DNA of 64,000 nt from Bdellovibrionota bacterium (GTDB taxonomy: Bacteria; Bdellovibrionota_C; UBA2361; JAAYZI01): positions 448,001-512,000 of the forward strand of contig JBMNIF010000003.1 of NCBI GenBank assembly GCA_050950765.1, written 5' to 3'. A model generated the notes under the pieces. The model saw nothing but the letters and a program-made list of their open reading frames with translations, had not been told where the DNA came from and did not search any database. A program made the position numbers and the translations under genes. Below, one piece after another: positions 10,227-60,765 of this stretch (within the stretch, counting starts at the first letter, position 1; the number at the start of each line of letters is the position of its first letter).

Positions 10227-11742
10227 TTAGGGACGGCTGAACGGGCGCGACTGCAGAACGGGATCAGCTAGGTTTAGACGGAGGTCAAAGGTCTGTACGA
10301 GGGTCAAAAATTTGGTGCCACCCTTCAGGGACAGCTGGAACGGGCGCAATTGCAGAATGGGATCAGCTAGGTTTAGACGGAGGTCAAAAATTTGGTGCCA
10401 CCCTTCTTTTTTACCGCTTTGACAGCTTAAGCGACTGGATGAATTTGGTGCCACCCTTCAAGGACGATCGGACGGGCTGCAACTAAAAATCGAATCGGCT
10501 AGGTCTGTACGGGGGTTAAAAATTTGGTGCCACCCTTCAGTGCAGAATCTTGGCTTAAAAGGATAAAGTCTTTAAAATCAATATGTTAGCACCTAACTAA
10601 AAATGGTTAGTTTTGGTGCCACCCACTAGTAAAAGTGGGTGTCCTAATTGGCTGGCAGCGGGGCTTTGGATCTGGTGCCACCCTTCTTTTTTACCGCTTT
10701 GACAGCTTAAGCGACTGGATGAATTTGGTGCCACCCTTCAGGGACAGCTGGAACGGCGCGATTGTAGAATGGGATCAGCTAGGTTTAGACGGAGGTCAAA
10801 GGTCTGGACGGAGGTCAAAAATTTGGTGCCACCCTTCAGTGCAGAATCTTGGCTTAAAAGGATGAAGTCTTTAAAATCAATATGTTAGCACCTAACTAAA
10901 AATGGTTAGTTTTGGTGCCACCCACTAGTAAAAGTGGGTGTCCTAATTGGCTGGCAGCGGGGCTTTGGATCTGGTGCCACCCTTCTTTTTTACCGCTTTG
11001 ACAACTTAAGCGACTGGATGAATTTGGTGCCACCCTTCAGTGCAGAATCTTGGCTTAAAAGGATGAAGTCTTTAAAATCAATATGTTAGCACCTAACTAA
11101 AAATGGTTAGTTTTGGTGCCACCCACTAGTAAAAGTGGGTGTCCTAATTGGCTGGCAGCGGGGCTTTGGATCTGGTGCCACCCTTCTTTTTTACCGCTTT
11201 GACAGCTTAAGCGACTGGATGAATTTGGTGCCACCCTTCAGGGACAGCTGGAACGGCGCGATTGTAGAATGGGATCAGCTAGGTTTAGACGGAGGTCAAA
11301 GGTCTGGACGGAGGTCAAAAATTTGGTGCCACCCTTCAGTGCAGAATCTTGGCTTAAAAGGATGAAGTCTTTAAAATCAATATGTTAGCACCTAACTAAA
11401 AATGGTTAGTTTTGGTGCCACCCACTAGTAAAAGTGGGTGTCCTAATTAGCTTGGGCGGGCTGATACTAAAAAATGAATCAGCTAGATTACGACGGGGGT
11501 AAAAAGTGGGTGTCCTAATTGGCTGGCAGCGGGACTTTAGATCTGGTGCCACCCACTAGGGACGGCAGAATGGGCTGTAACTAAAAACCGAATTGGCTAG
11601 GTCTGTACGGGGGTCAAAAAACTGGTGCCACCCTTCAGGGACGGTTGAACGGACGAGATTGCAGAATGGGATCGGCTAGATCTCTACGGAGGTAAAAAGT
11701 GTCACCCTTTGGCTAGTCAAGCTAGCCTAGAGGGTGATGCAC
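10227..11742 (+). repeat. Mosaic repeat array 1: 18 TGGTGCCACCC cores separating reused modules A/B/C/D
   Basis: Cores at 10313, 10393, 10446, 10525, 10614, 10673, 10726, 10824, 10913, 10972, 11025, 11114, 11173, 11226, 11324, 11413, 11544 and 11623. Lies between convergent genes. Confidence 0.95.
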
Positions 11743-11762
11743 CAGCCACACTAGATCTTTAA

Positions 11763-14075
11763 TTAATCTTTAGTTGCCACCTCTAAAGCCAGTTGTTTAG
11801 AACCCTTTAGATCCAACTTACCGCTACCAAGTAATGGGATATGATCGACACGGTAATAATCCTCAGGCTTCGGGATCCAGATATTAGGAAGTCCTCTCTC
11901 TGCCAACTGTTTTGACAACATTCTGGGATCTATATCATCAAGAATGTGCAAAACTACCAGCCTTTCACCACGTTTAGCATCAGGTACCCCCATCACCACA
12001 CAGACTCGATCTATTCGATCTAAGATCTCATGCAATATCTCTTCAGATTTAATATGCGGTATCATCTCACCAGCAATTTTACTGAAACGGTTTAAGCGAT
12101 CTGTAATATGAATAAAACCATCAGCATCACATACTGCGATATCACCCGTACAATACCAAGAGTCTTTAACGACCTCTTTAGTTAGATCTTCACGTTGATA
12201 ATATCCCATCATAACATTCGGACCCTTAACGTATAATAAGCCTTCTTGATTAGCTCCCAACTCTTGACCGGTCGTAATATCAACAACCTTTACGGTTATC
12301 TGCGGCATAGGTCTACCAACTGTACCTTCCTTAAATCCAACCTGTCCTTTCCAATATCCGGAAACATCGTGCAAATTTACAGAAACAACAGGGGCTGTCT
12401 CTGTACAGCCGTACCCCTCATAAATATTAAGTCCAAACTTCTGATAAAAATCCACAGCAACTTTGCCTTTTAATTTCTCCGCTCCTGAAACTATTGTTTT
12501 AAGAGAAGCAAACTGTTCTTTGGTACATTTCTTAATATAGTTCGCTATAAAGGTCGGAGTTCCGATTAAAAGGGATAGCTTATGCTCTTCAATCGCTTTT
12601 CCTATTGTAGCGGCTTCAAATGGATTGTGATGATAGACCACTTTAAAACCTGCTAGAATCGGCATCCACAAAGCAACTGTATACCCGAAAGAGTGGAAGA
12701 ACGGTAAAATCGCCATCAAACCATCTTTACGATTTAGACTTAAAGCGGAGATAAAGGCCTCAGCATTTGAAGTGATATTATAATGCGAAAGCATCACCCC
12801 TTTAGGCTCTCCCGTGCTACCGCTAGAAAAAATTAACGTAGCTAGATCATCTCTCGAAGGTTTATCTGAGAAGAAAAGTTTTTCCAAAACAACTCTCGGG
12901 AATAAGAGGGTAATTATTTCGTAGCATAATTTTTTAAAACGTTCAGGTCTCTCTATTATATCCTCGACAAAAAGCATCGATTCCGATGGCTGCTTGCCAA
13001 GTTTATTTAATAACTCTCGTGCAGTGATGATTGTCTCCATCCCTGTTTGTTTTTTTACAGACTCAATAAACTCATCAGGCACAGTGTAATTTAAATTAAC
13101 AGGAATCTTACCTACAAAGTATAAAGCGATATTGGTCAAGGTTGACTGAACAGAGGGTGGCAACATCACTCCGACAAACTTCGATGAAGATTCGCGCAAT
13201 TCCTTCTTTAATTTTCTACTCAATAGCAATGCTGCAGCCAACACTTGCAGATAATTTAATTTAAACCCATTAGCATTCGCCATTGCAAAGCGAAACGGAG
13301 ATCTCGAAGCCGTTTTCAGAAACGCTAGCGGCAAAACGCCAAAGACCTCTTTTCTATAACATGCCACATCAGCCCCCAACTCCTGCACTGCACGCCGTGC
13401 TTCATACGGAGTCGCTGCTTCTTTTATCGGAGCGCCGAAAGCAACCGTCATCGGATACGGTATCTCTTGCGGCAATGTACAACGAATATTACTGTTAAAT
13501 AAATTGCATTTTATGCCCCAAACTTTATCCAGATAAACTGGGATCACCGGAGCATCACTATTTTTTCTAATCCACCTAAAACCACTAGTAAACGGCAACA
13601 TATTACCAACTCGTTGCACATGCCCTTCTGCAAAGATAACTATCAGTTCACCGTTTCTAACGGCTTGTGCAGCTTCACCAAGTGACTTAAGGCTTTCTCG
13701 AGTACACTTAGCTGGAATCGGGATGACACGCATTAATTTTGTTAACGGTTTTATCAACGGTTTATTAGCGATCCGCTCATAAACTAAAAATCGCACAGGA
13801 CGTTTTATTACCGCTGCCAATATCAACGGGTCAAAATACGAAACGTGATTACAAACTAAGATAGCTCCTCCGCTCTGAGGGATATTTTCATCACCTACAA
13901 TTTTCAGTTTGTAAATAAAGCGGATTATCAACCAATTCATTTTGGTAATAAAAAAACGTGGACAGATCAACAGAGCTGCAAGCACAAGAGCAGCTAGGAC
14001 AGCCATTGTTTCCAGTAAAATCCCAAAATAAAAAAGAACAATTAAAAGTATTTCAATAGTAGCAACAATTATCAT
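11763..14075 (-). CDS. aas: Aas-like bifunctional acyltransferase / acyl-ACP synthetase (copy 1)
   Basis: NHVSYFD and FAEG (PlsC); FSSGSTGEPKG, EGYGCTE and TGD (AMP-binding). Confidence 0.85.
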   Translation of the reverse strand: MIIVATIEILLIVLFYFGILLETMAVLAALVLAALLICPRFFITKMNWLIIRFIYKLKIVGDENIPQSGGAILVCNHVSYFDPLILAAVIKRPVRFLVYERIANKPLIKPLTKLMRVIPIPAKCTRESLKSLGEAAQAVRNGELIVIFAEGHVQRVGNMLPFTSGFRWIRKNSDAPVIPVYLDKVWGIKCNLFNSNIRCTLPQEIPYPMTVAFGAPIKEAATPYEARRAVQELGADVACYRKEVFGVLPLAFLKTASRSPFRFAMANANGFKLNYLQVLAAALLLSRKLKKELRESSSKFVGVMLPPSVQSTLTNIALYFVGKIPVNLNYTVPDEFIESVKKQTGMETIITARELLNKLGKQPSESMLFVEDIIERPERFKKLCYEIITLLFPRVVLEKLFFSDKPSRDDLATLIFSSGSTGEPKGVMLSHYNITSNAEAFISALSLNRKDGLMAILPFFHSFGYTVALWMPILAGFKVVYHHNPFEAATIGKAIEEHKLSLLIGTPTFIANYIKKCTKEQFASLKTIVSGAEKLKGKVAVDFYQKFGLNIYEGYGCTETAPVVSVNLHDVSGYWKGQVGFKEGTVGRPMPQITVKVVDITTGQELGANQEGLLYVKGPNVMMGYYQREDLTKEVVKDSWYCTGDIAVCDADGFIHITDRLNRFSKIAGEMIPHIKSEEILHEILDRIDRVCVVMGVPDAKRGERLVVLHILDDIDPRMLSKQLAERGLPNIWIPKPEDYYRVDHIPLLGSGKLDLKGSKQLALEVATKD

Positions 14076-14132
14076 CGAAATAAAAAATCCTAAAAAACAT
14101 TTACAATATTAAACACTACAAAAAAAACGATT

Positions 14133-16463
14133 TTAAGCACTTGCCTTTTTCTGACTCGCCAACTCTAACGCCATCTGCTTTGCTTTCCTTAAATCTAATT
14201 TACCACTTCCCAGAAGCGGCATCTCTTCCACCCTATAATAATCCTCCGGCTTCGGAATCCACAAGTTCGGCAAACCGTGCTCCGACATTAACTTTGAAAG
14301 GTGTCTCGGATCAATCTCATCTAGCAGATGTAATACTACTAGGCGCTCTCCTCTCTTACCATCAGGCACACCAGTCACAACACAAACTCGTTCAGACTTA
14401 TCAAGCAACTCATGAAAAAGCTCTTCTGCTTTAATATGCGGCACCATTTCACCAGCAATCTTACTAAAACGACTTAAACGATCCGTTATTTTAATAAAGC
14501 CTTCATCATCACACATCGCGATATCGCCCGTGCAATACCAAGAGTCTTTCATTACCTCGCGCGTCAAATCTTCCCTACCCAAATACCCCATCATTACATT
14601 AGAGCCTTTAATGTATAGAAGCCCTTCCTGATTAGCTTCAAGCTCCTCTCCCGTATCTACATCTAAAATCTTAGCTGCTATCTGCGGCATTGGTCTACCA
14701 ACTGTGCCTTCTTTATAGCCGAGCTGTCCTTTCCAATATCCAGAAACATCTTTTAAATTTACGGAAACTACCGGTGAGAGTTCTGTGCAACCGTAACCTT
14801 CATGAATATTAATCCCGAATTTATCGTAAAAATCGACAGCCACACCTTTCTTTAACTTTTCAGCGCCAGCGATCGCTAAGCGCAGATACGAAAACTGTTC
14901 CTTAGTACATTTTTTAGTATACGCAGCAAAGAAAGTAGGCGTTCCAACGATTAAAGTCACCTTATGATCTTCCATAGCTTGTCCAATGGTGCTCGCATCA
15001 AAGGGACTGAAATGATAAACGACTTTAGCTCCAGATAATAGCGGCAACCACAAACAGACTGTAAAGCCAAATGAATGAAAAAACGGCAAGATGCCTATTA
15101 ATGTATCCTTACGCCCGATATGCAAAGAAGCTAAAAAACTCTCAATATCAGAAGCGATATTATCATGTGACAACATCACGCCTTTGGGTTCGCCTGTACT
15201 ACCACTTGAGAAAACTAAGGTTGCCAAATCATATCTCGACGGCTTTTCCGTTAGATAAAGTTTCTTAATCAGAAACTGCGGCATCAGCAAAGCGATAGAG
15301 ACATGTTTCAATTTCTCCCAAGTAGACAGCCCTCCTAAAAGATCTTCTAAAAAGAGCATTGAAGGGAGCGCCTGCTTATTAAGTTTTTCTAAAAATTTTT
15401 TAGAGGTGACAATCGTCTGCATCCCCGTTTGCTTTTCTACTGAAAGTAAAAATTTATCAGAAGCTGTATAATTTAAATTAACAGGTATTTTTCCTATGAA
15501 ATACAGGGCGATATTGATCAACACGGCCTCTACGGAAGGTGGCAACATAATCCCGACAAATTTAGATTCAGATGGTGGAATAGTCTGCTTTAAAATCTTT
15601 GCAGAGAGTAATGACATCCCTAGCACCTGCATATAATTCAAACTACGTCCTGTGGCGTTCGCCATCGCCTTGCGAAAAGGAGCTCGCTTGGCAGTCCTCA
15701 AAAAAGCTAAGTGCAATACCTGAAAAACTTCTTTTTTATACGGTGCAACATCAGCTCCCAATTCCTGAACGATACGACGTATTTTATAGGCACTACACTC
15801 TTCTTTAATGGGTTCTCCAAAAGCCACTGTCATCGGATACGGCAACTCTTTTGGCATATTGCAATGAAACTTTCCTTCAAAGAAAACCCAGTTTGTCCCC
15901 CAAACGCGATCAATATAAACAGGAATTATCGGAGCATTGCTTTCTCGTCTGATACGGTTAAAGCCGGTTGTAAATGACAACATCGTACCGACTCGTTGCA
16001 CATGTCCTTCAGCAAAGATAACGACTAATTCTCCGTTTTTTACAGCGTCTGCGGCCATATCTAAAGCTCGTACGCTATCTCTATTACATTTTGCTGGGAT
16101 CGGAATCGCCTTGACAGCTTTCGCTATAGGTTTTACGAACCATGTGTTATAAATCGCATCATACACCAAAAAACGAACAGGTCTGTTCATAGAAGCGGAT
16201 AGAATCAACGGGTCTAAGTAAGAAACATGATTACAAACAAGGATTGCTCCGCCATCTTTCGGAATGTTTTCAAGACCTATAATTTTTAACTTATAAACGA
16301 TCCTGATAATAAATCGGGTCAACGCCAAGATCGTACGTTGCGGAGCAATAACAGCGCATAACACCACTATCAAAGTTATTATTAAAAGTGTCTGTAATAG
16401 AATTCCTAATTTTAATAAAAGTAGGAGTAGTGCAAGGGGAAGTAGAAGTATAATTATAGTCAT
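14133..16463 (-). CDS. aas: Aas-like bifunctional acyltransferase / acyl-ACP synthetase (copy 2)
   Basis: Same motifs as copy 1; tandem paralogue. Confidence 0.85.
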   Translation of the reverse strand: MTIIILLLPLALLLLLLKLGILLQTLLIITLIVVLCAVIAPQRTILALTRFIIRIVYKLKIIGLENIPKDGGAILVCNHVSYLDPLILSASMNRPVRFLVYDAIYNTWFVKPIAKAVKAIPIPAKCNRDSVRALDMAADAVKNGELVVIFAEGHVQRVGTMLSFTTGFNRIRRESNAPIIPVYIDRVWGTNWVFFEGKFHCNMPKELPYPMTVAFGEPIKEECSAYKIRRIVQELGADVAPYKKEVFQVLHLAFLRTAKRAPFRKAMANATGRSLNYMQVLGMSLLSAKILKQTIPPSESKFVGIMLPPSVEAVLINIALYFIGKIPVNLNYTASDKFLLSVEKQTGMQTIVTSKKFLEKLNKQALPSMLFLEDLLGGLSTWEKLKHVSIALLMPQFLIKKLYLTEKPSRYDLATLVFSSGSTGEPKGVMLSHDNIASDIESFLASLHIGRKDTLIGILPFFHSFGFTVCLWLPLLSGAKVVYHFSPFDASTIGQAMEDHKVTLIVGTPTFFAAYTKKCTKEQFSYLRLAIAGAEKLKKGVAVDFYDKFGINIHEGYGCTELSPVVSVNLKDVSGYWKGQLGYKEGTVGRPMPQIAAKILDVDTGEELEANQEGLLYIKGSNVMMGYLGREDLTREVMKDSWYCTGDIAMCDDEGFIKITDRLSRFSKIAGEMVPHIKAEELFHELLDKSERVCVVTGVPDGKRGERLVVLHLLDEIDPRHLSKLMSEHGLPNLWIPKPEDYYRVEEMPLLGSGKLDLRKAKQMALELASQKKASA

Positions 16464-16748: not shown

Positions 16749-18356
16749 TTATTTATTTTTTGCAAACAATGTCCTGACAAAATCTCCTTCATCCATATCA
16801 AACAAAGTGAGTATATCTTTTTGTTTTCTAGAAAGAGGTGCCATGAGTTTCGTTTCTCTATCGTTATAATTTACTTTTCTTACTTTCCTCATTTCATTGA
16901 GAAGTTTTTTCGTTGAGGAAACCGGCTTTTTACTTTCTGTTCCCAAATGATTACATAAATCTGCTTGCAAGATTTGAGCTAAAAAGCCTATGAAGAACTT
17001 TCCTTGCGTACTTTGGTCGTTGTGGGTTCTGAATCTTGAGAAATCAATATTGTTTTTCATGCTGTCATAATTTTTTTCAATTCGATCTCTTTGTCTATAC
17101 AGGGTTAAAACTTCTTCCCAACTCAATGCTTCCACATTGGTTAAAATCCCGAACATGCCTAAGATCTTCCAGCTTTCAGTAATTGCTGTAAGATCTTTTT
17201 CATAGCTTTTCAAGATTTCATTTTCTACTTCGGTATTGAAATAGGAGAGGCGTTTCTTTCTTTTCTTTTTCCCTAAGGATTTCGTCAAAGCCTCTTCATC
17301 TCGTTTTAATTTTGCTCCAAAAATCACTTCTTCATCTCTGGCTTTTTCCGTGTTGAAATATGAGCACGCATAGAGCCGATGTCCCTCTATGTCAACTTCT
17401 TTTTTATGCCCATAGCATTCCAATTCGACTGAATAGTTCTCAGCTGAACGTATATGATCCGCTTCGTTGAGTAAAATTGCTTCATAGATGTTTTGGCTAC
17501 TTGGAAAAGCTATGATAAATTGAATGCCTCCATCTCCGTGAAGCAAGTCTAAGTTGTTGCTTGTGATAAATCCTCGATCCATAATGAAGATAACGGAACT
17601 TAAGCCAAACTCCTTGGCTAAGTTGAGCATTGACCCAATATGAACCTTGTCGGGAATTGACCCATCATAAAGTTCATAGCATAAGGGTAAATTCAACTTT
17701 TGTGAATAAAGCAAACCGACGTTGATTTGCTCTAATTTTTCATGGTCTCGATTGTAGCCCATCTGAGCAAATTCAAGATTTTCACTATATGTGGAAATGC
17801 TTGTAACGTCATAAGCGACTACATCGTTTTTCGTTTTATTCAAGTCGATCCATGTTTTAAAAAACTCCCAAATTTTCTCCTTGGAAATCCATTGATACAC
17901 TTCGTTCAAATGTTTTTCGGATACAAAGCAATCAAAAGGCAGATCCGAAGATTCGTAAAAATCATCCAGATACATCATCACATTTCCTTCACAAACCATG
18001 TAAAAAGCTGTTGTCAGAAGTTTTTGATAATCCTCCGGAAATACTTCTTTAAGAGCTTTTGTTAATTGCAACTCCTCAGCTCTCTCATTGAGCAGGTGAG
18101 TATGACCTGAATCTAAAAACTTATTCACATTTTTTTCTCTTGGATGCGGCAGGTTAAACAAATCAAAATAATGGTCATTAGGAAACATAGTTTTCGGTTC
18201 TTCTTCGTTTAATCTTCCGATCGCCTTATCTCTATGTGACCAATTTCCATTTTTTGTCTGGTAATGCTCGTAAATGTAGTAGACATAGCGATGGTTTCCT
18301 GATTTTTTGATAGAGGTTTTTTGTGGAACATCAACTGTATTTTTATAAATTGCCAT
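16749..18356 (-). CDS. IS1634-family DDE transposase
   Basis: YDVTSISTYS, GYNRD, MDRGF and Y..RD.IEK motifs. Likely start ATG 18356 after AAGGGTGA; the ORF track extends to 18404. Confidence 0.85.
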   Translation of the reverse strand: MAIYKNTVDVPQKTSIKKSGNHRYVYYIYEHYQTKNGNWSHRDKAIGRLNEEEPKTMFPNDHYFDLFNLPHPREKNVNKFLDSGHTHLLNERAEELQLTKALKEVFPEDYQKLLTTAFYMVCEGNVMMYLDDFYESSDLPFDCFVSEKHLNEVYQWISKEKIWEFFKTWIDLNKTKNDVVAYDVTSISTYSENLEFAQMGYNRDHEKLEQINVGLLYSQKLNLPLCYELYDGSIPDKVHIGSMLNLAKEFGLSSVIFIMDRGFITSNNLDLLHGDGGIQFIIAFPSSQNIYEAILLNEADHIRSAENYSVELECYGHKKEVDIEGHRLYACSYFNTEKARDEEVIFGAKLKRDEEALTKSLGKKKRKKRLSYFNTEVENEILKSYEKDLTAITESWKILGMFGILTNVEALSWEEVLTLYRQRDRIEKNYDSMKNNIDFSRFRTHNDQSTQGKFFIGFLAQILQADLCNHLGTESKKPVSSTKKLLNEMRKVRKVNYNDRETKLMAPLSRKQKDILTLFDMDEGDFVRTLFAKNK

Positions 18357-18414
18357 ATCAATCACCCTTGTATATATTATACACAATAGGGAGGAAAATA
18401 TCAAGAGAGTTTTT

Positions 18415-18464
18415 TAAAAAAATATCGCATAAAAGCTCGTAAAAATGAGCGTTTATGCGATATT
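18415..18464 (-). terminator. Terminator-like hairpin inside the IS, upstream of the transposase
   Basis: AATATCGCATAAA...TTTATGCGATATT stem followed by a T run on the minus strand. Confidence 0.55.
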
Positions 18465-18736: not shown

Positions 18737-19105
18737 GGTGGCACCGCCACCCTTCAGGGACAACTGAACGGGGTGATACTAAAAAATAAGTCAACTAGAT
18801 TACGACGGAGGTTAAGAGTGGGTGTCCTAATTGGAGAGCGAGATCGGTTAGGTTTCGACGGAGGTTAAAAATTTGGTGCCACCCTTCAGTGCTAAAAGAC
18901 TCTAAAATTGCAATAGTTAGTAATATCAGTATGTTAGTAAAAGCTCAGAATTCGGCAGTTTTGGTGCCACCCAACAGAGGGGAGCCGCCACCCACTAGGG
19001 ACAATTGAACGGGGTGATACTGCAAAACGAACTGGTTAGATTTCTACGGAGGTTAAAAGGTGGGTGTCCTAAAAAGAAGAAAGTATCTACACTCGGGGGT
19101 CAGGA
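18737..19105 (+). repeat. Mosaic repeat array 2 (modules A, E and terminal module)
   Basis: Cores at 18874 and 18962 (88 bp apart), two GTGGGTGTCC cores and A modules. Confidence 0.9.
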
Positions 19106-23304: not shown

Positions 23305-23495
23305 TGGTGCCACCCACCAGTACGACCTGCCATTTCGCAGCAGCGGTTTTTGATTTTGATGATTTTTATAAAGAAAATGGTGTTGATGCTCTGTCAACAC
23401 AGGGCGCAGAGCAGATATAATCACTTTGTGGGTGGCACCAGTTTTACCCCCGTAAAAACCTAGCCGATCCGCTTTGCAGTTCCAGCCCGCCCTAG
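23305..23495. repeat. Inverted core pair enclosing a 108-bp duplicate of 44145-44252, followed by an A module
   Basis: TGGTGCCACCCAC at 23305 and GTGGGTGGCACCA at 23428; 23330-23437 is identical to 44145-44252. Confidence 0.9.
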
Positions 23496-25680: not shown

Positions 25681-25682
25681 AA

Positions 25683-26547
25683 ACCTGACTTCCAAATACC
25701 AATTTAAGGCATCCACTTTTAGGTTAAATTCCATTTTCCCCTAATGTCTTGATATTATTAACACCCCTGAAGGGTGGCACCAAATTTTTGACCTCGCTTT
25801 GCAGTTGCAGCCCGTCCTGCTGCCCTGAAGGGTGGCACTAAATTCAAGCCCAGCTAAATCTGCTAGATCTGCTCAAACTGGTGGGTGGCACCAGTTTTTT
25901 GACCCTCGCTGCTTCTTACTGGTGGGTGGCACCAAAACTGCCAAATTCTAAGTTTTTACTAACATCTTGATATTATTAGCTATTGTAATTTTGGAGTCTT
26001 TTAGCACTAAAGGGTGGCACCAAATTTTTAACCCCCGTAGAAATCTAGCTAACTCGCTCTGCAGTTGCAGCCCGTTCTGCTGTCACTAAAGGGTGGCACT
26101 AAATTCAAGCCCAGCTAAATCTGCTAGATCTGCTCAAACTGGTGGGTGGCACCAGTTTTTTGACCCTCGCTGCTTCTTACTGGTGGGTGGCACCAAATTT
26201 TTAACCTCCTAGATCTGCCCAAACTGGTGGGTGGCACTAAATTCAAGCCCAGCTAAATCTGCTAGATCTGCCCAAACTGGTGGGTGGCACTAAATTTTTA
26301 ACCTTCGTAGAAATCTAGCTAACTCGCTTTGCAGTTGCAGCCCGTCCTATTGTCCCTAAAGGGTGGCACCAAAACTGTCAAATTCTAAGTTTTTACTAAC
26401 ATCTTGATATTATTAGCTATTGTAATTTTAGAGTCTTTTAGCACTGAAGGGTGGCACCAAATTTTTAACCCCCGTAGAGACCTAACCGATCCCGCTCTGC
26501 AAGTTGCAGCCCGTCCTGCTGTCACTAAAGGGTGATACAAATTCACC
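25683..26547 (-). repeat. Mosaic repeat array 3 (12 GGGTGGCAC cores)
   Basis: Cores at 25772, 25830, 25883, 25924, 26012, 26091, 26144, 26185, 26229, 26282, 26361 and 26449. Lies between convergent genes. Confidence 0.95.
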
Positions 26548-32302: not shown

Positions 32303-33355
<1,053 letters not shown>

Positions 33356-33496
33356 TTATAGACAATCTTTCGAAAGGGTATTTGTAACACGCAGAGAGGC
33401 TGCAATCAATTAAAGGTCATATTTTTTGCAAATCCTCTATAACTACCTCTAAATTATAGTATCAGCACACCATTCAAGAGAGTATTTAGAATCTCC

Positions 33497-33969
33497 GCCA
33501 ATTAGGACACCCACTTTTAACCCCCGTCCAGATCTAGCTACTTCGTTTTGCAGTATCAGCCCGCTTAATCGTCCCTAGCGAGTGGTAGTAAATTCTCCCC
33601 GTCCAGATCTAGCCACTTCGCTCTGCCGTCGCAGCCCGTTCAGCCGTCCCTGAAGGGTGGGGGAGCTTCTGGTGGGTGGCACCAAAACTAACCTTTTTTA
33701 GTTAGGTGCTAACATATTGATTTTAAAGACTTCCCCCTTTTAAGCTAAAATCTGCACTGGTGGGTGGCACCAAATTTTTAACCCCCGTACAGACCTAGCT
33801 GACTCGCTCTGCAGTTTCAGCCCGTCCTGCCGTCCCTGAAGGGTGGCACCAGATCCAAAGCCCTGCTGCCAATTAGGATACCCACCTTTACTGGTGGGTG
33901 GCACCAGATCTGCCTAATATCGGTTTTTTGCTAACGCCTTGATATTATTAGCTATTATAATTTTAGAGT
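33497..33969 (-). repeat. Mosaic repeat array 4
   Basis: Cores at 33674, 33762, 33841 and 33896; modules A, C, D and E-like; GGACACCCAC at 33505. Confidence 0.9.
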
Positions 33970-37179: not shown

Positions 37180-40100
37180 ATGAATAAGCGCCGTTTGATT
37201 ATCACAATATTATTTACGACCCTTTTAGTGTCGCTTATTTTGTTTCTTTATGCTTGGAACACTTTACAACATTTTGGAGCCACTCAGATCACTGCTCTTC
37301 TACAATCCGAGATCGACGAATCGTGCGGAGGAACTTTTAAGACAGATCAGATTACAATAAATCCTTTTTTACTTTCTGCCACCGCAACTAATGCACGGAT
37401 AGAACAGGCCGATAATCAAGCTGTTTTGAATTTTAAAAAACTTCACGCCACCTTCAGTCTGAAAAGAATCTTTGAACATGTTATTATATTAAAAGAGCTC
37501 AATCTTATTGAAGGCACCTCTACTGGTGTTACCCCTCAAACCCCCACCTATATCTTTATAGACTACCTAGCAAAGCCATTACCGCCAGAGAAACAAATAC
37601 CAGGAAGGTGGCGTTTAAAGCTGCACGATCTTAATGTTTTAAAAACAACTATCAATGAAAAATTAGGGACTCTAGCACTGACCTCATATGACACCGCTTT
37701 CTCTTTAAAAAGAGATAACCGCGACAATTTTATTCTGACTTCCAGCATGGGAGCTTTAGATGCAAGTATTAAAGGCAAAGTTTGGCATCTCGGAAGTGTA
37801 GAGGGAGAGGGGTATATTGATGACTACGATCTTAAGTTAAATAAAGTAAGTATAAATTCAGACTCGCCTTGGATTACTGCTATTTTACGCTTCGCCACAA
37901 CACCTGATGACGATACGGTGGAAGGTACCTTAAACTTTAATCTACCCACTTCATTACTCGGTCTCGACTCTTGGATCAATGCCACTTTAGCAGGAGGGGG
38001 AGAAGTTAGTGGGGATCTCGACAATTTAAAGTTAGCAGGAAGTATTGCAAGTGTTGACACAGCACCTGCTTTTATTCCCATTGCAGACACAACTATCCCA
38101 CTAAACAAGTTAAAGATCGACTACACTGCAACACTTGATGACGGTTACTCTGCCAAGATTACAAATATGAGTGCAGAATCTTACAAAATTGATATCACTC
38201 AACCGATCTCCATTAAAAATGATGTTTTTTCTGGAGAAGCAAATATCAAACTACCCGAATTAAACATCTCAGGTACACATTGCAAAAATGCAGATATCAA
38301 TCTTAATTTATCAGGTGATATCTCTGCCATATCAGCCGTTCTTGATGGATCCTGCCAGAGTCTTTCAGTTATCGGTGCAGAGATACCTTCGCCACATCTA
38401 AGATTTGAATATATCAATGGCGAGATGCAGCTTAATCTTGAGCATCAACAAAGAGACGGAGGAGAACTACACGTAGTTTTAAAGATGTCGGAAACTCCCG
38501 ACACTACCATTATTGATAATTTTGAAGTTTCCACAAAAGATTACCCTCTAAAGCTATCAAAAAATCTGACAGCTAAGATCAATACAGATCTCCGTCTTGA
38601 TAATCACACACACTCGCCAACTGATACCGTCTTAAACTCTAAAACTACAGCCACATTTTCAATTGACCTCCCTCACTTTTCACAACTTAACGGAGAAGCT
38701 ACTATTAAAGATGCTCTCTTTTCTCTTAAAGCAGAAACTCTCGACAACACTATAAAGATAGAACTTTCAAAAAATTTAAAGACCCCTTCACCTTTTAAAT
38801 TACGCCTAGATGTTGCAACTTTTAACCTCGAAACACTTTCTCCTACCCTTGCCTGTTCAACTATCTCTCTGCAAGGTGATTATAACTTTTTCCCAGAAGT
38901 TGCCACTAAAGGTAACGGAAAGATTAAAATTTCGGAACTGCAGTTAGGTTGTGAGCCGCATCGTCTAACTCTTCTAAATGAGGCAAATTTAATTATCAAA
39001 AACGGCACCTTATTCATCAAAAACCTTACAACAAACGGTGAAAATGCACAGGCGATATTTTCAGGTCAAATCACTACTTCTAAGATTGATTTAGCTGCTA
39101 ACTTAAAAATTCAACTAGCACTCCTTCAACATACCTTCCCTTTTGTTGATGATCTGCAAGGAGATCTGGAAGCTGATTTTAAAATAAACGGAGGCTTTAG
39201 TGATATCTCACTTATAGGAACTGCGAGTATCAAAGAGGGAGAGATATCGGTGGAATCTTGGGATATCAATGCCCACTCTTTGGAGGGAACTGCCCTCTTT
39301 TCTAAAGGTAAAATCTCTCTACAAGATCTTAGTGGAGAATTAAATAACGGTTCAATCCAGCTCGGCGCTTCTATTGCTCTCGATAAATCAGATCAAAATA
39401 AGCTAACAGTTAATTTTTCAGATATTACATTAAAACCAGACGATAATTTATCAATGCAAATTTCAGGAGATTTAAAACTATCGGACGTCACAGAGCGCCC
39501 TACACTAGAAGGCAACATCGCTATAAATCGAGCTGAAATTTTACAAAGTCTCAACCTTGCTACTGCAATCAATGCTCTGACTGAATATCTCTTTAAGAGC
39601 AAACACAAAAAAACAACCCAAACACTTCCTGATATCGCTCTCAACATCCGTTTAGTAGCAGCGCGTAATTTTATGATTATAAGCAACCTTCTTCAAGCTG
39701 AATTAAAGGGAGCATTCACTATTAAAGGAAATTTACAAAATCCGAAATTACGCGGGACAGCGCAAACTATTTCAGGATGGCTAGCTTTTAATGATCACTA
39801 CTTTGATATTACATCAGGACGCGTCATCTTTAAACAATCGAAACCTGATGGTGCCTTAGAAGTTATCGGGGAGACTACGATTTTTAATAATACAGGCAAT
39901 TTGGAGACTGTTTTTCTTGAGGCGACAGGTTCCTTAACAAACCCGCATGTACGCTTAACTTCAGAAAATAACCTTTCTCAAAATGAAATTTTAACACTTC
40001 TCACAACATCTCCAAACACGGAGGTGCCCGATATTCATCGCGGGACAGCGCTTGACGCACTTTCAATATTACCAGATGACGATCATCACGGTGTCGCAGC

Positions 40101-42855: not shown

Positions 42856-43182
42856 CAAAGAACCTCCTAGCTATATATAAAGATGCTTATGCGATACTCT
42901 CTTTTTGTTAAAACTTATCGCTGAAGCGCCTGTATAATAATAATTAAATCAATATGTTAGCATTAAAAGGGGCTAACAAACTTATTCTTATTATTTTTCA
43001 GGATCCTTTTTTTATTTAATAACATCTCATGAATACAGGTTTATGACTTATTCAGTTTTAGGGTTTTTAAAAGGTACTCTATCTGTGAATAGGTTTTATT
43101 TGGTGAATGGCTACTTAATTTGTTTTTATACAATAAAAACCTGATGCGGAAGATTAGGTTTAAAAGTTTTGAGGGCTTACAA

Positions 43183-49108: not shown

Positions 49109-49298
49109 TAAAAGTTCTTCGCGTGTTTAAACAAAAAAAGATTATTGATTTATACTTTATTGAAAAGAGATCCGGCAGCATAAACGAGCACCCACCCTCT
49201 TCGCAATAAGCAGCACTGATTAGACGTCATCAGAAACGATATAGATTCAGGCATTTACGAAGAAAATGAGGTGGTCTTTTAAAATTGCAACCTTATTT

Positions 49299-49670
49299 TC
49301 CTGACTCCAAAGTGTAGATACTTTCTTCTTTTTAGGACACCCACTTTTAGCTAAATCTTAAGCTTACACTAACGTTTTGATATTATTAAGTTATTGTAAT
49401 TTTAGAGTTTGGGTGTCCTATTTGTATGCTTTGACCTCCGTCTAAATCTAGCTGATCTTGCTCTGCAATCGCGCCCGTTCCAATTTTTTGACCTACGTCT
49501 AGATCTACCTAGTGGGTGGCACCAAATTTTTAACCTCCGTCCAGATCTTTGACCTCCGTCTAAACCTAGCTGATCTTGCTCTGCAATCGCGCCCGTTCCA
49601 ATTTTTTGACCTACGTCTAGATCTAAGTGATCCGCTTTTCTGTTTCAGCCCCGTTTTATTACCCCTAGTA
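49299..49670 (-). repeat. Mosaic repeat array 5 (terminal module, IHF module between inverted second cores, A modules)
   Basis: TAGGACACCCA at 49333 and TGGGTGTCCTA at 49410; main core at 49514. Confidence 0.85.
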
Positions 49671-49709
49671 AGTGAAGAGAGCGTCCTTGAAGGATGAAGA
49701 TACCTTACT

Positions 49710-52921: not shown

Positions 52922-52927
52922 CAGATC

Positions 52928-56844: not shown

Positions 56845-57497
56845 TTAATAGCCTCTAAAAGGTAACAGCGAAAAAGCTAATCGAATGCTTTCACTCTTTA
56901 TCTTTTCACCATATCTTATTATTTACACGTATATTTTCAAGGATCTCTGCTGAACGAATTTTGTTTAGAGATCTCTCTTCATCTTACATTTAACTCTTTA
57001 AAAGTGTCGGTATTTTCACTCTCTTAAGGGGATAGCTACTGCTAGAAGCACAGAAAAAGTAATAAAAAATCTCGTCTTAAAATGGAGATACTGCGGAGTC
57101 TCTAGCCCCTTTCTAAAAACTCTTAAATTTAAAGAACTCCGCACCTTACCTTTGTTTTTGACCTTATATATATGATCAAAATCTAGAACTCCCTGCTAAA
57201 AATGATGTGCTAAGGTAATTTTATTTTTTGACACAACTAATAAAATACAATATTTTTAGATAGTTACTCTTTTTTACTTAAGACGCTCTCCTATTTATGC
57301 CGACTATAATGGATACAATAGAGGCAGAAGAAAGAGATTTGCAGATATGACAAAGAAAGGGCTGCGTTGGTTTTGTTGCCGATTTCATGTATAGCATCAT
57401 TCTCACACTGTCCGTTTGCCATTATATTTTATTTTTAATTGATAGAGGTCGTAGCACCCTGCTTAGTGCAGTAGCTTATTTTTGATTTTGGGATACG

Positions 57498-59858
57498 ATG
57501 ATTCATCAGATTGAAATTTGGATACTTGAACTTATCCGCTGGTATTTTAATTCCAGTTTCGTATTTGCCATACCATCTATCGTCCTCATCATTGTCCTCC
57601 TCTTTTTGCAGTTTTCACATCAAAACAAAAACCCTCTCCCTGGCATTGGTGCCATTCTACTTTGTATTGTCGAATTCTTTCACCTAGTTGAAAAATTCCA
57701 GGTAAGAGCTGATCTCTACTTTACAGACTTAATCCATCAGATGGAGATGCCATCACCATCTTCCTTTGGAAAATTGCCTTTTGGCTTCGAGCAGATCTTC
57801 ACTATCTTTGTTGGAAAAGCTGAAACTCGAACTTACCTTGAAGAGTTAATTTTTGTTATTTTTGCCACCTACTTTATACTTTTTCTAATAGAGGGTAGGA
57901 AGGATTATAAAAGAACTGGTGTCATACTCGGAGATTTCTCCATAAAAGATATCGTGAGTGGCTTTAATAATGAGGATCGTCGTCCTATCCGTTCAAAATC
58001 AAATGAGCTAGGTTCCGGAGATTTAGCCAATACAGATCAGATTATAAAATGGACAAAACCATCAGGTTCAAAAGGAGATACCTGTTTGCCAGTTACTGAT
58101 CTGCGCGGAAGCGACGGTATCTCGCTACGTTCCGGAGAGCTAGTCTGGCCAGCCGGAGAAAGGAATCGTCATATTTTAGCTATTGCAAAAACCGGTAGTG
58201 GAAAAACCTCCCGTTTAATCTTACCGATTCTTTATAGCGATTGTCTTTGCCAAGATCGTTCCACTATCGTGATCGACTCAAAGCCTGAGATGTGGCGCAA
58301 ATTGGCTCGCATGACTCGTGAATATAATCCTGAAAAAAATATCATGCTCTTCAACCCGTTAGATATTTCACGAAGCATGAGTTGGAATATTTTAAGTAAG
58401 ATTGAAGATGACACCGACTGTAAACTAATCGCTAACACCTTGATCATGGCAACAGAGAATCCATCTGCTAAAGGTGACAGCCCTTTCTTTAGGAACAACG
58501 CTCTTTCGATTTTAAATGCTATCATGGTCGGCTTATTGCGAGATCCTGATGAAACCTTATCAATGCCGAGGATCCACGAATTGGTACAATCTGGTATGAA
58601 GCCACTTTGTGATTGGTTGGAATCTCATCCGGAAGCATTCAGGACTTCCAGAACCTTTGTTGAATTGGCTAGATCAGAATCTCAAAATGCTGACACGATT
58701 ATGTCGGAGTTGGGATCCCGCTTAAGCGCTTGGGACCTACACGCTGTTCGTGCCACTACTGCCAAAGATGAATTGGATATCAAAAAGCTAATTACCGAAC
58801 CAACCCTCTTCATCGTTGAGTTCAGAGAATCAGAATTAGAGATGTTACGACCGTTGGCGAACGTAATTGTTATTGAGCTTCTAAGATTCTTAACGAAACA
58901 AGCCGAGTTCTGTCCTGGATCTAAATTACCACGTCCTGTCGGTTTAGTTATTGACGAGTTTGCTTCTGCACTAGGTCGCTTGCCTGATATTCACGTCAAG
59001 TTAAACACATTGCGTTCCCGTAATGTTAGTATCGTGGCAGCAATTCAATCAATCGCACAGATAAAATCGAACTATGGCGATACAGCAGATTCCGTATTAG
59101 CTGGTTTTAGCTCAACTATTTTAATGCCGTCTTTGGATGTCCAAGATGCAGAGTGGGCATCGAAAGAATCAGGTCAGATGACTATTCGCTTTCAAACCGC
59201 ATCTACCGGTAGTAACCGAAAGATTATTGAGTGGTTTGCTAGTAAAAACGTCGGCTCTCAAGAACAGGTACAACAACGTGCTGTTTTAACACCAGACGAG
59301 ATCGGACGTCCTGCCGATAACCGCGCTACCTTTTTCATGCCGAATACCCCACCCTTTCAAGGTTTCTTGGTGCCATTTTTCAAGATTCCGGAGATGCTCA
59401 AACGTCTAACAGAGTTTGATAACGATAAAGATGAGCTCTTTTTACGGGATGCGCCGATCGATTATGTAGATGCTCCCCCTGCTCCACCAGCTGCCAAACA
59501 GAACGCTGCTGCTTCAGGTGGGCTGCCTGCAGGTATCTCCAATACAGCAGGTTGGACAGATGAACAGCTAGCAAAGAAGCTTGATGAAGTTAGAGCCAGC
59601 CTTGATTGGGATAATACCACAGGGAGCGCTAGAAAATGGTGGGAAGCTTTTGAGAATGAAAATAAGCACCGTCTGGCATTGGTGCTTAGATTGGCTGAAG
59701 AGCTAGCTAACCGTAAAGCAACAATTACGGAATTCTTTCTCGCCTACGTTTACAGTAACACAGATAATATCCAAGCGAATTTATACTACCTTGACTACTC
59801 TCGCTTAAAGAAAGAGGAAGAACGCAAACGTAAAGAAGCTGCAGCAGCTAATCCGTAG
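57498..59858 (+). CDS. VirD4/TraG-like type IV coupling protein ATPase
   Basis: N-terminal TMs, Walker A AKTGSGKT, DSKPE, FNP..S.SWN, Walker B LVIDEF, QSIAQI..YG and LTPDEI. Confidence 0.8.
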   Translation: MIHQIEIWILELIRWYFNSSFVFAIPSIVLIIVLLFLQFSHQNKNPLPGIGAILLCIVEFFHLVEKFQVRADLYFTDLIHQMEMPSPSSFGKLPFGFEQIFTIFVGKAETRTYLEELIFVIFATYFILFLIEGRKDYKRTGVILGDFSIKDIVSGFNNEDRRPIRSKSNELGSGDLANTDQIIKWTKPSGSKGDTCLPVTDLRGSDGISLRSGELVWPAGERNRHILAIAKTGSGKTSRLILPILYSDCLCQDRSTIVIDSKPEMWRKLARMTREYNPEKNIMLFNPLDISRSMSWNILSKIEDDTDCKLIANTLIMATENPSAKGDSPFFRNNALSILNAIMVGLLRDPDETLSMPRIHELVQSGMKPLCDWLESHPEAFRTSRTFVELARSESQNADTIMSELGSRLSAWDLHAVRATTAKDELDIKKLITEPTLFIVEFRESELEMLRPLANVIVIELLRFLTKQAEFCPGSKLPRPVGLVIDEFASALGRLPDIHVKLNTLRSRNVSIVAAIQSIAQIKSNYGDTADSVLAGFSSTILMPSLDVQDAEWASKESGQMTIRFQTASTGSNRKIIEWFASKNVGSQEQVQQRAVLTPDEIGRPADNRATFFMPNTPPFQGFLVPFFKIPEMLKRLTEFDNDKDELFLRDAPIDYVDAPPAPPAAKQNAAASGGLPAGISNTAGWTDEQLAKKLDEVRASLDWDNTTGSARKWWEAFENENKHRLALVLRLAEELANRKATITEFFLAYVYSNTDNIQANLYYLDYSRLKKEEERKRKEAAAANP

Positions 59859-59891
59859 ACTAATACCGTTTTTACCCCCCCCCAAAAAAAA

Positions 59892-60765
59892 AACTGACCC
59901 CCTACTGGTGGGTGGCACCAAATTTACCAGCATTCTTTTAAGCCAAGATTCTGCACTGGTGGGTGGAGCCGTCCTTGCTGGTGGGTGGCACCAGATCTGC
60001 AGACCCTACAGTTGCAGCCCGTTCAGCCGTCCTTGAAGGGTGGCACCAGATCCAAGCCCCGCTGCCAATTAGGACACCCACCTTTAACTGGTGGGTGGCA
60101 CCAAAACTGCCAGATTTTAAGCTTTTGATAACATCTTGATATTACTAGCGGCACTGGTGGGTGGCACCAGTTTTTTAACCTCCGTCCTTGAAGGGTGGCA
60201 CCAGTTTTTTCCCGCTGCAATTTGCAGCCCGTTCAGCCGTCCCTGAAGGGTGGCACCAAATTTATCCAGTCGCCTAAGCCATCAAAGCAGCAAAAAAGAA
60301 GGGTGGCACCAGCGTCTAGCTGCCCAAACCGGTGGGTGGCACCAAAACTAACCATCTTTAGTTAGGTGCTAACATATTGATTTTAAAGGCTTCATTCTTT
60401 TAAGCCAAGATTCTGCACTGGTGGGTGGCACCAAATTTTTGACCAGTGCTGCTGGTGGGTGGCACCAGATCCAAGCCCAGCCAAAGTCAGCAGATCCCGT
60501 CTTACTAGTGGGTGGCACCAAGACTGCCGAACACCAGATCTGCAGCCCGTTCAGCCGTCCCTGAAGGGTGGCACCAGCGTCTAGCTGCCAGATCCAAGCC
60601 CCGCTGCCAATTAGGACACCCACCTTTAACTGGTGGGTGGCACCAAAACTGCCAGATTTTAAGCTTTTGATAACATCTTGATATTACTAGCGGCACTGGT
60701 GGGTGGCACCAGTTTTTTAACCTCCGTCCTTGAAGGGTGGCACCAGTGCTGGAACCAGTGCTGGA
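59892..60765 (-). repeat. Mosaic repeat array 6 (16 GGGTGGCACCA cores)
   Basis: Cores at 59910, 59983, 60038, 60093, 60159, 60193, 60248, 60301, 60334, 60423, 60457, 60510, 60566, 60635, 60701 and 60735. Lies between convergent genes. Confidence 0.95.

What the first reader, a model, noticed from the sequence alone, without database searches (positions are those of the whole stretch)
10576..60683. IHF consensus held exactly 25 bp from a core in different modules
Seen: WATCAANNNNTTA lies exactly 25 nt from a core at 10576, 10875, 11076, 11375, 33710 and 60370 (module C, AATCAATATGTTA). The same holds at 25960, 26397, 60129, 60671, 33932 and 18924 (1 mismatch) in E-type modules, and from the second core (GGACACCCAC or variant) at 49370 and 25742. 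The NNNN positions vary (TATG, GATG, GGCG, AACG, GACA) and the 25-nt linkers differ, while the consensus and spacing stay fixed. Full C and E modules both span 88-89 bp core to core. Known: WATCAANNNNTTR is the IHF consensus, and IHF bends DNA to synapse sites in lambda att, F/R388 oriT and E. coli RIP/BIME-1. Inference: these are selected nucleoprotein architectures that bring two cores together.
Basis: partly seen in the sequence, partly recalled or inferred. Interest (0 to 1): 0.88.

Follow-up and report, generated by a model that had tools for sequence, protein, structure and literature searches.

The report
IHF-site module in REP-like repeat arrays
Between ordinary genes this uncultured bacterium carries chains of a short repeated DNA core, and one kind of spacer in those chains holds a well-kept match to the binding site of the DNA-bending protein IHF at a fixed, helix-phased distance from the cores; it resembles the IHF-binding REP/BIME repeats of E. 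coli but is built differently.

Summary
Genome-wide, 107 of the 127 strict IHF-consensus hits that lie within 150 nt upstream of a core sit 25-26 nt from it.

The "cores" (GGTGCCACCC, 967 per 2.64 Mb) form same-orientation intergenic arrays with about 200 spacer-module types. They also bracket, in inverted orientation, all six copies of a RAYT-like HUH transposase gene. So these are REP/BIME-like mosaic repeats with a NIME-like layout.

The IHF match is the best-kept part of a ~25-nt box (CTAATAATATCARNNNNTTAGCAAAA) that precedes 147 of 967 cores. Variation falls on the R and N positions. The C and E modules share only this box, their heads and their tails.

A distant genome (G125) has arrays with a different core and unrelated spacers but the same box. 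In relatives the box is also enriched in unique contexts. IHF-alpha-like and IHF-beta-like genes are present.

New here: core-to-core distances are quantised at about 11 nt, roughly one helical turn.

The E-type linkers are homologous, not independent. Binding, bending and core synapsis are untested. Earlier scan notes described mosaic arrays in this and other genomes; my look-ups returned no note on the IHF box.

The parts
10189..11762 (+). Mosaic array A. It has 18 cores (GGTGCCACCC) in one orientation and four C-type modules with the IHF box.
10576..10588 (+). IHF-consensus box AATCAATATGTTA in a C module. The same box occurs at 10875-10887, 11076-11088 and 11375-11387. Each lies 26 nt before the next core.
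18790..19100 (+). Array B. It has two cores (18875, 18963) and inverted second cores (18818, 19060). The E module carries the box TATCAGTATGTTA at 18924-18936 (WATCAR form). An IS1634-family transposase gene abuts the array.
23306..23439 (.). A solitary inverted pair of cores (23306 + and 23430 -) just after a gene end. It carries no box.
25681..26546 (-). Array C with 8 cores. E-type boxes lie at 25960-25972 and 26397-26409. A box at 25742-25754 lies 25 nt from a variant second core.
33338..33962 (-). Array D with 4 cores, upstream of mreB. It has a C-type box at 33710-33722 and a truncated E-type box at 33932-33944.
49109..49709 (-). Degenerate array E with one exact core. The box at 49370-49382 lies 25 nt from the inverted second core GTGGGTGTCC.
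59859..60784 (-). Array F with 16 cores. Short (66-nt) E-type modules have boxes at 60129-60141 and 60671-60683. A C-type box lies at 60370-60382.
42947..42959 (+). Solitary copy of the box (AAATCAATATGTTAGCA) in a unique intergenic region. No core is nearby.

Best explanation
The IHF matches belong to one class of spacer modules in REP/BIME-like mosaic repeat arrays. The arrays are chains of a 10-nt core in a single orientation, separated by modules of 20-200 nt. The same core, in inverted orientation, brackets every copy of a RAYT-like (HUH/Y1) transposase gene, so the core is that enzyme's REP-like end.

About 15% of cores are preceded at 25-26 nt by a ~25-nt box. The centre of the box is WATCAR-N4-TTR. 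I think the box is a binding site for the cell's own IHF heterodimer. It has been captured by the repeat family and kept by selection.

Because cores are spaced in steps of about 11 bp, and the box sits whole turns from both neighbouring cores, an IHF-induced U-turn would fold the module. That fold would lay the two flanking cores, and whatever protein sits on them (most likely the RAYT-like enzyme), side by side. This is how IHF works at transposon ends and in E. coli BIME-1.

Shown: the positions, the conservation pattern, the spacing and phasing, the presence of the genes, and the RAYT association.

Inferred: IHF binding, bending, juxtaposition of the cores, and whether the benefit goes to the repeat (processing or spread) or to the host (nucleoid structure).
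For: Spike at 25-26 nt: 107 of 127 strict hits and 141 of 147 relaxed hits. In all, 147 of 967 cores carry a box upstream.

Conservation, using 98 unique E-type segments chosen by their linker only:
- The nine specified consensus positions are 0.94-1.00 conserved when R is counted as purine.
- Three of the four N positions are 0.68-0.77.
- The left flank is 0.50-0.76.
- All 6 departures at the last R are A to G.

C versus E: the box region is shared, but the left interiors (1462 of 2000 shuffles score as well) and the linkers (201 of 2000) are not significantly alike.

Second genome, G125. Its MutS is 37% identical, against 41-51% for the four relatives compared in the same search.
- It has 189 copies of another core, GTAMCTGGCAC, against 0 for the control.
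- It has 41 consensus sites 5-35 nt upstream of that core, against 0 for the control.
- Of 26 modules picked by length alone, 20 have an exact consensus, 4 have a one-letter variant at the same place, and 2 have none.
- The box is the only conserved part besides the core.

The box AATAATATCARNNNNTTA (up to 1 mismatch) is enriched over its reversed control in most genomes of the order. Examples are 42 vs 6, 25 vs 1 and 21 vs 0. There it lies in unique contexts. In this genome 26 hits lie away from cores, against 7 control hits in total; site 42947 is one such solitary box.

IHF genes: the best NCBIfam hits are IHF-alpha (106.7 bits) and IHF-beta (102.8 bits). The arm motif R-G-R-N-P and the beta motif RIEIR align with E. 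coli IHF in PDB entries.

REP nature: 6 of 6 RAYT-like genes are flanked by inverted cores. Pfam Y1_Tnp scores above its cut-off.

Phasing: core spacing has a period of 11.0-11.25 nt. R is 0.49 for 793 modules and 0.334 for 211 cluster modal lengths, and 0 of 1000 jittered nulls reach these values. The period holds for the 188 clusters without a box. The box-to-upstream-core gaps have a period of 11.0 with R 0.589, again 0 of 1000. Modules show no internal 11-nt repeat.

Known precedents: the BIME-1 L linker carries an IHF site (PMC3333891 and PMC2817692, passages read). The Correia element binds IHF in vitro (PMC2229807, passages read).
Against: No binding data exist, and the DNA specificity of IHF in this phylum is unknown.

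Both IHF genes score just below NCBIfam's equivalog cut-offs (106.7 vs 111; 102.8 vs 115).

Within this genome the E-type linkers are homologous. Constant spacing there needs no selection.

The NNNN letters are partly conserved too (TATG/GATG, with position 2 at 0.95). This points to common descent of the box, not to convergence.

The conserved block is wider than the 13-nt consensus (TAATAA upstream, GCAAAA downstream). Another protein, or a second one, could be reading it.

Only the downstream core is at a fixed distance.

The 11-nt periodicity is a property of all modules. For the 23 box-bearing clusters alone it is not significant (424 of 1000 nulls). The number of truly independent module families is small, so the jitter tests overstate significance.

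G125 was found by searching for the box. Its fetched loci were chosen around box hits, so its module sample is biased.

The RAYT-like protein scores below the NCBIfam RAYT cut-off (67.4 vs 80). G019, which shares the core, has no such gene by two searches. Of 11 homologue loci in other genomes, only 5 showed a plausible inverted flank match of 10 nt or more. One further match was trivial and 5 loci had none.
Confidence: 0.6

Rival explanations
1. The box is a real protein site, but for a protein other than IHF. Candidates are the 170-residue C-terminal extension of the RAYT-like protein, the lysine-rich HU-like protein, or an unknown factor. Under this rival the match to the E. coli IHF consensus is incidental.
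For: The conserved block (about 25 nt, including TAATAA and GCAAAA) is wider than the IHF core consensus. The RAYT-like protein has about 170 residues beyond its Y1 domain with no family match. A third HU/IHF-family protein with a Lys-rich tail exists.
Against: Every specified position of a 13-nt asymmetric consensus is kept, and variation falls on the R and N positions, in two genomes. The box is enriched in unique contexts in relatives. It is present in G125, where only a weak RAYT-like hit was found (E 6.4e-4). IHF footprints cover about 30-35 bp (recalled), so a wide conserved block is compatible with IHF.
Confidence: 0.15
2. The box has no function. It and its spacing are kept only because the modules are recent copies of one another, by amplification and gene conversion of selfish repeats.
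For: The E-type right halves are one homologous sequence. The 13 C copies are nearly identical. The NNNN letters are partly conserved.
Against: The neighbouring left flank of the same copies has decayed to 0.50-0.76 while the box stays at 0.94-1.00. C and E share the box but have no significant flank similarity. G125 modules have diverged everywhere except the core and the box. Solitary boxes occur in unique DNA.
Confidence: 0.12
3. The box acts in transcription or at the RNA level. It could be an outward promoter element, or a signal in the 3' untranslated RNA of the upstream gene.
For: In C modules a TTGGCT-17-TAAAAT match (9 of 12) overlaps the start of the box. Arrays prefer gene 3' ends. 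Of 69 arrays with both neighbours called, 34 are convergent, 28 co-directional and 7 divergent. In co-directional gaps 21 of 28 arrays point the same way as the genes. On the reverse strand, 64 of 147 box-preceded cores give TGGCACC-N4-YTGC, a GG-N10-GC arrangement like sigma-54 promoters.
Against: No sigma-70-like match was found in the E-type array (0 found against 1.1 expected). There were no Rfam matches. The box modules fold no better than shuffles (z -0.79 and 0.02). The sigma-54-like element would put the box downstream of the start site, not upstream where IHF sites of such promoters lie (recalled).
Confidence: 0.08

Closest known systems
E. coli BIME-1 / RIP (REP - L linker with IHF site - inverted REP), with its RAYT (TnpAREP)
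   Same: Both are high-copy intergenic repeats at gene 3' ends. In both, the core sequence brackets a Y1/HUH RAYT-type gene in inverted orientation. In both, a conserved linker between two cores carries an IHF consensus (PMC3333891 and PMC2817692, passages read).
   Different: Here the neighbouring cores are in direct, not inverted, orientation. The core is a 10-nt near-palindrome without the GTAG head, not a 20-40-nt hairpin. There are about 200 module types, not a handful of linkers. The RAYT-like protein is 322 aa, present in six copies, and scores below the NCBIfam RAYT cut-off. The phylum is different (earlier scan notes say Bdellovibrionota).
Neisserial intergenic mosaic elements (NIME: 20-bp dRS3 cores separated by more than 100 families of RS elements)
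   Same: The array layout is the same: one short GC-richer core repeated along an intergenic stretch, separated by many families of 19-214-bp spacers that reshuffle (PMC1797815, passages read).
   Different: dRS3 is an inverted-repeat core targeted by a phage recombinase, and no IHF site is described for RS elements in the passages I read. Here the cores are asymmetric, associated with a RAYT-like gene, and spaced in 11-nt steps.
Correia / NEMIS elements of Neisseria
   Same: A small non-coding repeat that carries a functional (in vitro) IHF site in its interior (PMC2229807, passages read).
   Different: Correia elements are MITEs with 26-51-bp terminal inverted repeats and target duplication. 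They are not arrays of direct cores.
IHF sites next to transposase-binding ends (e.g. IS10/Tn10 outside end) - recalled, not checked in a paper here
   Same: An IHF consensus lies a few tens of bp inside a terminal recognition sequence, so that the bend folds the end onto the enzyme.
   Different: Those are DDE transposons acting on double-stranded ends. RAYT/IS200-type enzymes act on single-stranded hairpins and are not known to use IHF.

Membership tests
REP/BIME (RAYT-associated repetitive extragenic palindromes) | The repeat brackets the rayt gene as two copies in inverted orientation | tested here: met
   All 6 of 6 gene copies have a core on the + strand about 300 nt upstream and a core on the - strand about 250 nt downstream. 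The 5' side forms a 13-bp inverted pair of cores.
REP/BIME (RAYT-associated repetitive extragenic palindromes) | High copy number, extragenic, clustered | tested here: met
   There are 967 cores in the genome. They form 96 arrays of 3 or more cores. The arrays are mostly in convergent or co-directional gaps.
REP/BIME (RAYT-associated repetitive extragenic palindromes) | The unit is a 20-40-nt imperfect palindrome with a conserved 5' GTAG-type head | tested here: not met
   The core is 10 nt (GGTG-C-CACC plus C). Only 65 of 967 cores are followed by the inverted second core that makes a hairpin. Most modules fold no better than shuffles.
REP/BIME (RAYT-associated repetitive extragenic palindromes) | In BIMEs, neighbouring REPs alternate in orientation | tested here: not met
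   Arrays run in a single orientation. There are 793 same-strand neighbour pairs within 200 nt or less.
BIME-1 / RIP | A conserved linker between two REPs carries an IHF consensus | tested here: met
   This is sequence evidence only.
BIME-1 / RIP | IHF binds the linker | not testable with these tools
   This needs EMSA or footprinting.
RAYT (NCBIfam NF047646, REP-associated tyrosine transposase) | Score above the curated cut-off; HUH and catalytic Tyr motifs | tested here: inconclusive
   The protein scores 67.4 bits against a cut-off of 80. Pfam Y1_Tnp scores 29.8 against 23. H-F-H and Y-I-x-x-N-P are visible in the sequence; that these are the catalytic motifs is recalled. The protein is about twice the usual length.
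IHF heterodimer (ihfA/ihfB) | Two paralogous subunits whose best matches are IHF-alpha and IHF-beta | tested here: inconclusive
   The best hits are the alpha model (106.7 bits, cut-off 111) and the beta model (102.8 bits, cut-off 115). The best PDB matches are IHF chains, and the arm and RIEIR residues align.
NIME | dRS3-type 20-bp inverted-repeat core (ATTCCC-N8-GGGAAT) | tested here: not met
   The core sequence and its symmetry differ (PMC1797815).

The most novel reading that the evidence does not exclude
The arrays are not just selfish REP clutter. They are helically phased nucleoprotein scaffolds. The cores are set at whole multiples of the in-vivo helical repeat (about 11.1 bp, recalled), so that a core-binding protein lines up on one face of the DNA. 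IHF-box modules act as built-in hairpin bends that fold the chain. The same design, with a different core, has been kept or re-invented in a distantly related bacterium. That would be a new kind of programmed chromosome-folding element, or a new IHF-dependent mode of REP processing by a long RAYT-like enzyme.
Probability: 0.22. Interest if true: 0.8.

Novelty: new variant of a known kind. Interest (0 to 1): 0.6.

Why it matters
IHF sites inside REP/BIME repeats have been known in E. coli for decades without a settled purpose. This case adds three features.

- In each array family the IHF box is the only well-conserved part of its module type besides the core and its junctions. The two families come from distant genomes and have different cores.
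- The cores are chained in one orientation.
- The core spacing is quantised at about one helical turn.

Together these make the question "what is the IHF site in REP repeats for?" testable with simple spacing and bending experiments. They also extend RAYT-linked repeats to a phylum where my library searches found none described.

Tried and rejected
- Rfam, whole window: 0 matches. tRNA/tmRNA: none.
- Single-strand folding of five modules: only the core plus inverted-second-core module folds better than shuffles (z -2.09). The box modules do not.
- Sigma-70 scan: no match in the E-type array. A weak match was found in C modules only.
- I tested whether the box goes specifically with hairpin-type cores. 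The link is weak: 17 of 147 against 65 of 967 overall, odds ratio 2.1. The copies are not independent.
- Genome-contig scan for the 25-nt box gave 14 single hits. Twelve look like chance hits in AT-rich DNA, one is a family relative, and one led to G125.
- I tested whether the core family is shared by relatives. Only 2 of 30 (G019 with 37 copies, G025 with 16) show more than a handful. In G019 the core ends MITE-like inverted pairs, with no box in the four stretches read.
- Internal 11-nt repeats as a source of the length periodicity: not seen. Lag 11 matches at 0.260, which is background.
- Sequencing runs: no RNA holder is listed.
- Contigs of four DNA runs break at the arrays. They show neither array variation nor its absence.
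- Paper searches returned noise. Searches found nothing relevant.
- A sigma-54-like GG-N10-GC on the reverse strand of E-type ends was counted but not pursued.


Full report
**What is there**

The window is G000:C3:448001-512000 of a 2.64-Mb, 40% G+C genome in 5 contigs. Earlier scan notes call the organism an uncultured Bdellovibrionota bacterium; I did not test that. Near-identical DNA occurs in anaerobic-digester, bioreactor and similar metagenomes from 14 studies.

The window holds ordinary chromosomal genes: EF-G, mreBCD-pbp2-rodA, mutS, rplS, a BamA-like gene and others.

Between them lie seven stretches that carry the 10-nt core GGTGCCACCC. There are 51 copies in the window against 0.02 expected, and 967 in the genome. 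Within an array all cores point the same way. They are separated by "modules" of about 20-200 nt. Genome-wide there are 793 neighbour pairs at 200 nt or less, 695 different module sequences, and about 211 k-mer clusters. The core is preceded by YT (T at -1 in 98%) and followed by TTC or ACC, then AG.

**The observation**

The window has 19 strict consensus hits against 3.6 expected, and 0 of 100 shuffles reach 19.

Of 395 strict hits, 127 lie within 150 nt upstream of a same-strand core, and 107 of those are at a gap of 25 or 26 nt. With WATCAR the figure is 141 of the 147 hits at gaps 20-30. In all, 147 of 967 cores (15%) have such a box upstream. The distance to the upstream core is not fixed; it takes values of 17, 29, 39-40, 52, 62, 73 and so on.

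**What the cores are**

The genome has six copies (five identical, one 99% identical) of a 322-aa protein with a Pfam Y1_Tnp domain, plus a seventh partial copy. Its best NCBIfam hit is "REP-associated tyrosine transposase", at 67.4 bits, below the cut-off of 80.

All six copies are bracketed by cores in inverted orientation. On the 5' side is an inverted pair of cores that can form a 13-bp stem. On the 3' side is a reverse-strand core. Arrays of opposite polarity lie on the two sides.

That is the defining arrangement of RAYT genes and their REPs (PMC2817692, abstract and passages read). It also matches the E. coli "REPtron" (PMC3333891, passages read).

Homologues of the protein occur in 113 of 124 genomes of the phylum. 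I looked at 11 homologue loci:
- Five have a plausible inverted flank match of 10 nt or more. Several resemble this core (ACTGGTGCCA, AATAGGTGCCA, GGGTCACCC).
- One match was trivial.
- Five loci had none by that test.

Arrays favour gene 3' ends. Of 69 arrays with both neighbours called, 34 sit in convergent gaps, 28 in co-directional gaps and 7 in divergent gaps. In co-directional gaps 21 of 28 point with the genes.

So the arrays are REP/BIME-like. They fail two classical features: the unit is not a 20-40-nt hairpin, and neighbours do not alternate in orientation. The layout is closer to neisserial NIMEs, which are short cores separated by more than 100 spacer families (PMC1797815, passages read).

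**Is the IHF match more than shared descent?**

Within this genome the E-type right halves are clearly one homologous sequence. The constant spacing there proves little by itself. Three further tests address the question.

(i) I chose E-type segments by their linker only, ignoring the box. This gave 98 unique sequences.
- TAATAATATCA is 0.87-1.00 conserved.
- The R position is A74/G22.
- The four N positions are 0.77, 0.95, 0.68 and 0.74.
- TT is 1.00.
- The final R is A91/G6.
- The left flank is only 0.50-0.76.
- Even the linker used for selection is only 0.57-0.99.

(ii) The C and E consensus sequences share the head (core to CAGTGC), the tail (AGTTTT) and the box region (AWATCAAKATGTTAGCA). 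Their left interiors and their linkers are no more alike than shuffles (1462 of 2000 and 201 of 2000 shuffles score as well).

(iii) A scan of species genomes for the 25-nt box gave 14 single hits.
- One is in G124, which appears to be the same genome as the same-family relative G001 (matching contig number and place). It holds a homologous module.
- One led to G125. This MAG has MutS only 37% identical, against 41-51% for the four relatives compared in the same search.
- G125 has its own same-orientation arrays with a different core, GTAMCTGGCAC: 189 copies against 0 for the reversed control.
- It has 41 IHF-consensus sites 5-35 nt upstream of that core, against 0 for the control.
- Of 26 modules of 85-115 nt taken by length alone, 20 carry an exact WATCARNNNNTTR, 4 carry a one-letter variant at the same place, and 2 carry none.
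- In their alignment the only conserved parts are the core and CAATAATATCAA-nnn-GTTA.
- Caveat: G125 was found through the box, and its loci were fetched around box hits.

**The box outside the repeats**

AATAATATCARNNNNTTA (up to 1 mismatch) exceeds its reversed control in most genomes of the order. Examples are G006 42 vs 6, G013 25 vs 1, G116 21 vs 0 and G010 27 vs 3. Several families of the wider class show no excess, for example G042 11 vs 20.

In G006, G013 and G116 the sites are scattered single copies in unrelated contexts. In this genome 180 of 206 hits lie within 200 nt of a core and 26 lie elsewhere, against 7 control hits in all. The site at window 42947 is one of these.

This fits a site for a host protein that the repeat family has picked up.

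**IHF genes**

There are three HU/IHF-family genes. One is best matched by the IHF-alpha models (106.7 bits, cut-off 111). One is best matched by the IHF-beta models (102.8 bits, cut-off 115). One is a Lys-rich HU-like protein.

Against solved structures the first two align best with IHF chains. The arm R-x-G-R-N-P and the beta-subunit R-I-E-I-R are kept. That these residues contact WATCAR and TTR is recalled from the IHF-DNA structure literature; I did not check it here.

Core-to-core distances are quantised. Peaks lie at 21, 32-33, 43, 53, 65-66, 79, 88, about 100, 110-111, about 122 and about 131 nt.

A Rayleigh scan gives the following.

| Data set | n | Best period (nt) | R | Jittered nulls reaching R (of 1000) |
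|---|---|---|---|---|
| All modules | 793 | 11.25 | 0.49 | 0 |
| One modal length per cluster | 211 | 11.0 | 0.334 | 0 |
| Clusters without any box | 188 | 11.0 | 0.324 | 0 |
| Singleton clusters | 156 | 11.0 | 0.266 | 1 |
| Clusters with a box | 23 | 11.0 | 0.448 | 424 (not significant) |

The gaps from the upstream core to the box (36 cluster-gap pairs) have a period of 11.0 with R 0.589, and 0 of 1000 nulls reach it.

Modules show no internal 11-nt repeat that could generate this. G125's fetched modules peak at 11.5 nt (58 modules, biased sample).

The truly independent families are few, so these tests overstate significance. Still, the period equals the helical repeat of bacterial DNA in vivo (about 11 bp, recalled).

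If the IHF dyad lies about 1 bp 5' of the W (recalled), it sits about 44 bp from the centres of both flanking cores in the 88-89-nt C and E modules. In the other box modules it sits whole multiples of about 11 bp from the upstream core. This is the geometry needed for a U-turn to lay two cores side by side. It is inference.

**Verdict**

The finding is best read as a REP/BIME-like, RAYT-associated mosaic repeat family in which one module class carries a selected IHF-type site. It is a new variant of the E. coli BIME-1/RIP theme, with a NIME-like direct-array layout and helically quantised spacing.

Binding, bending, synapsis and the beneficiary (repeat or host) remain untested.

Rivals:
- Another protein reads the box.
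- The box is kept by pure descent.
- The box is a promoter or RNA signal. This rival is weakened.

My library searches found no description of such arrays in Bdellovibrio-like bacteria, or of helically phased intergenic repeats with IHF sites. Subscription journals are not covered.

Noticed in passing
whole genome; window arrays 10189-11762, 25681-26546, 59859-60784: Core-to-core distances in the arrays come in steps of about 11 nt, with peaks at 21, 32, 43, 53, 65, 79, 88, 100, 110, 122 and 131. This also holds for the 188 module clusters that have no IHF box.
   Followed up: yes
G000:C2:7699-8664 and five other places (outside the window): There are six copies (five identical, one 99%) of a 322-aa RAYT-like gene. 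Each is bracketed by inverted cores and by arrays of opposite polarity. A seventh partial copy lies at C2:8863-9087. Usual RAYTs are single-copy and about half this length.
   Followed up: partly
reverse strand of every core; E-type module ends, e.g. window 25924-25945: The reverse complement of the core contains TGGCAC, which is the sigma-54 -24 element. In 81 of 967 cores (64 of the 147 preceded by a box) the reverse strand reads TGGCACC-N4-YTGC, i.e. GG-N10-GC as in sigma-54 promoters. The IHF box would then lie just downstream of the start.
   Followed up: partly
window 16749-18404 (-): An IS1634-family transposase gene (246.9 bits) lies directly beside array B. An earlier scan note describes the same element family inside another array of this genome.
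   Followed up: no
G019 (same order), e.g. L012: The same core occurs 37 times as GGTGCCACCCTGTTTT, partly as inverted pairs around AT-rich stretches of about 100 nt (MITE-like). The genome shows no RAYT-like gene by two searches.
   Followed up: partly
window about 59870-59900: Adjacent homopolymer runs (T10 then G9 on the minus strand) sit at the end of array F, just after the VirD4/TraG-like gene 57498-59858. This could be a slippage-prone tract.
   Followed up: no
window 11763-14075 and 14133-16463 (-): Two tandem paralogues match the acyl-ACP--phospholipid O-acyltransferase / acyl-ACP synthetase (Aas) models. Each covers only the C-terminal two thirds of the 1147-position model.
   Followed up: no
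window 37180-42855 (+): A 1891-aa protein has a BamA/TamA-like barrel in only its last 420 residues. The first 1470 residues match no NCBIfam model at E 1e-10.
   Followed up: no
module sequences genome-wide: There is a weak excess of base self-matches at lags of about 9, 18, 27 and 37 nt inside modules (0.29-0.30 against about 0.26). It is unexplained.
   Followed up: no
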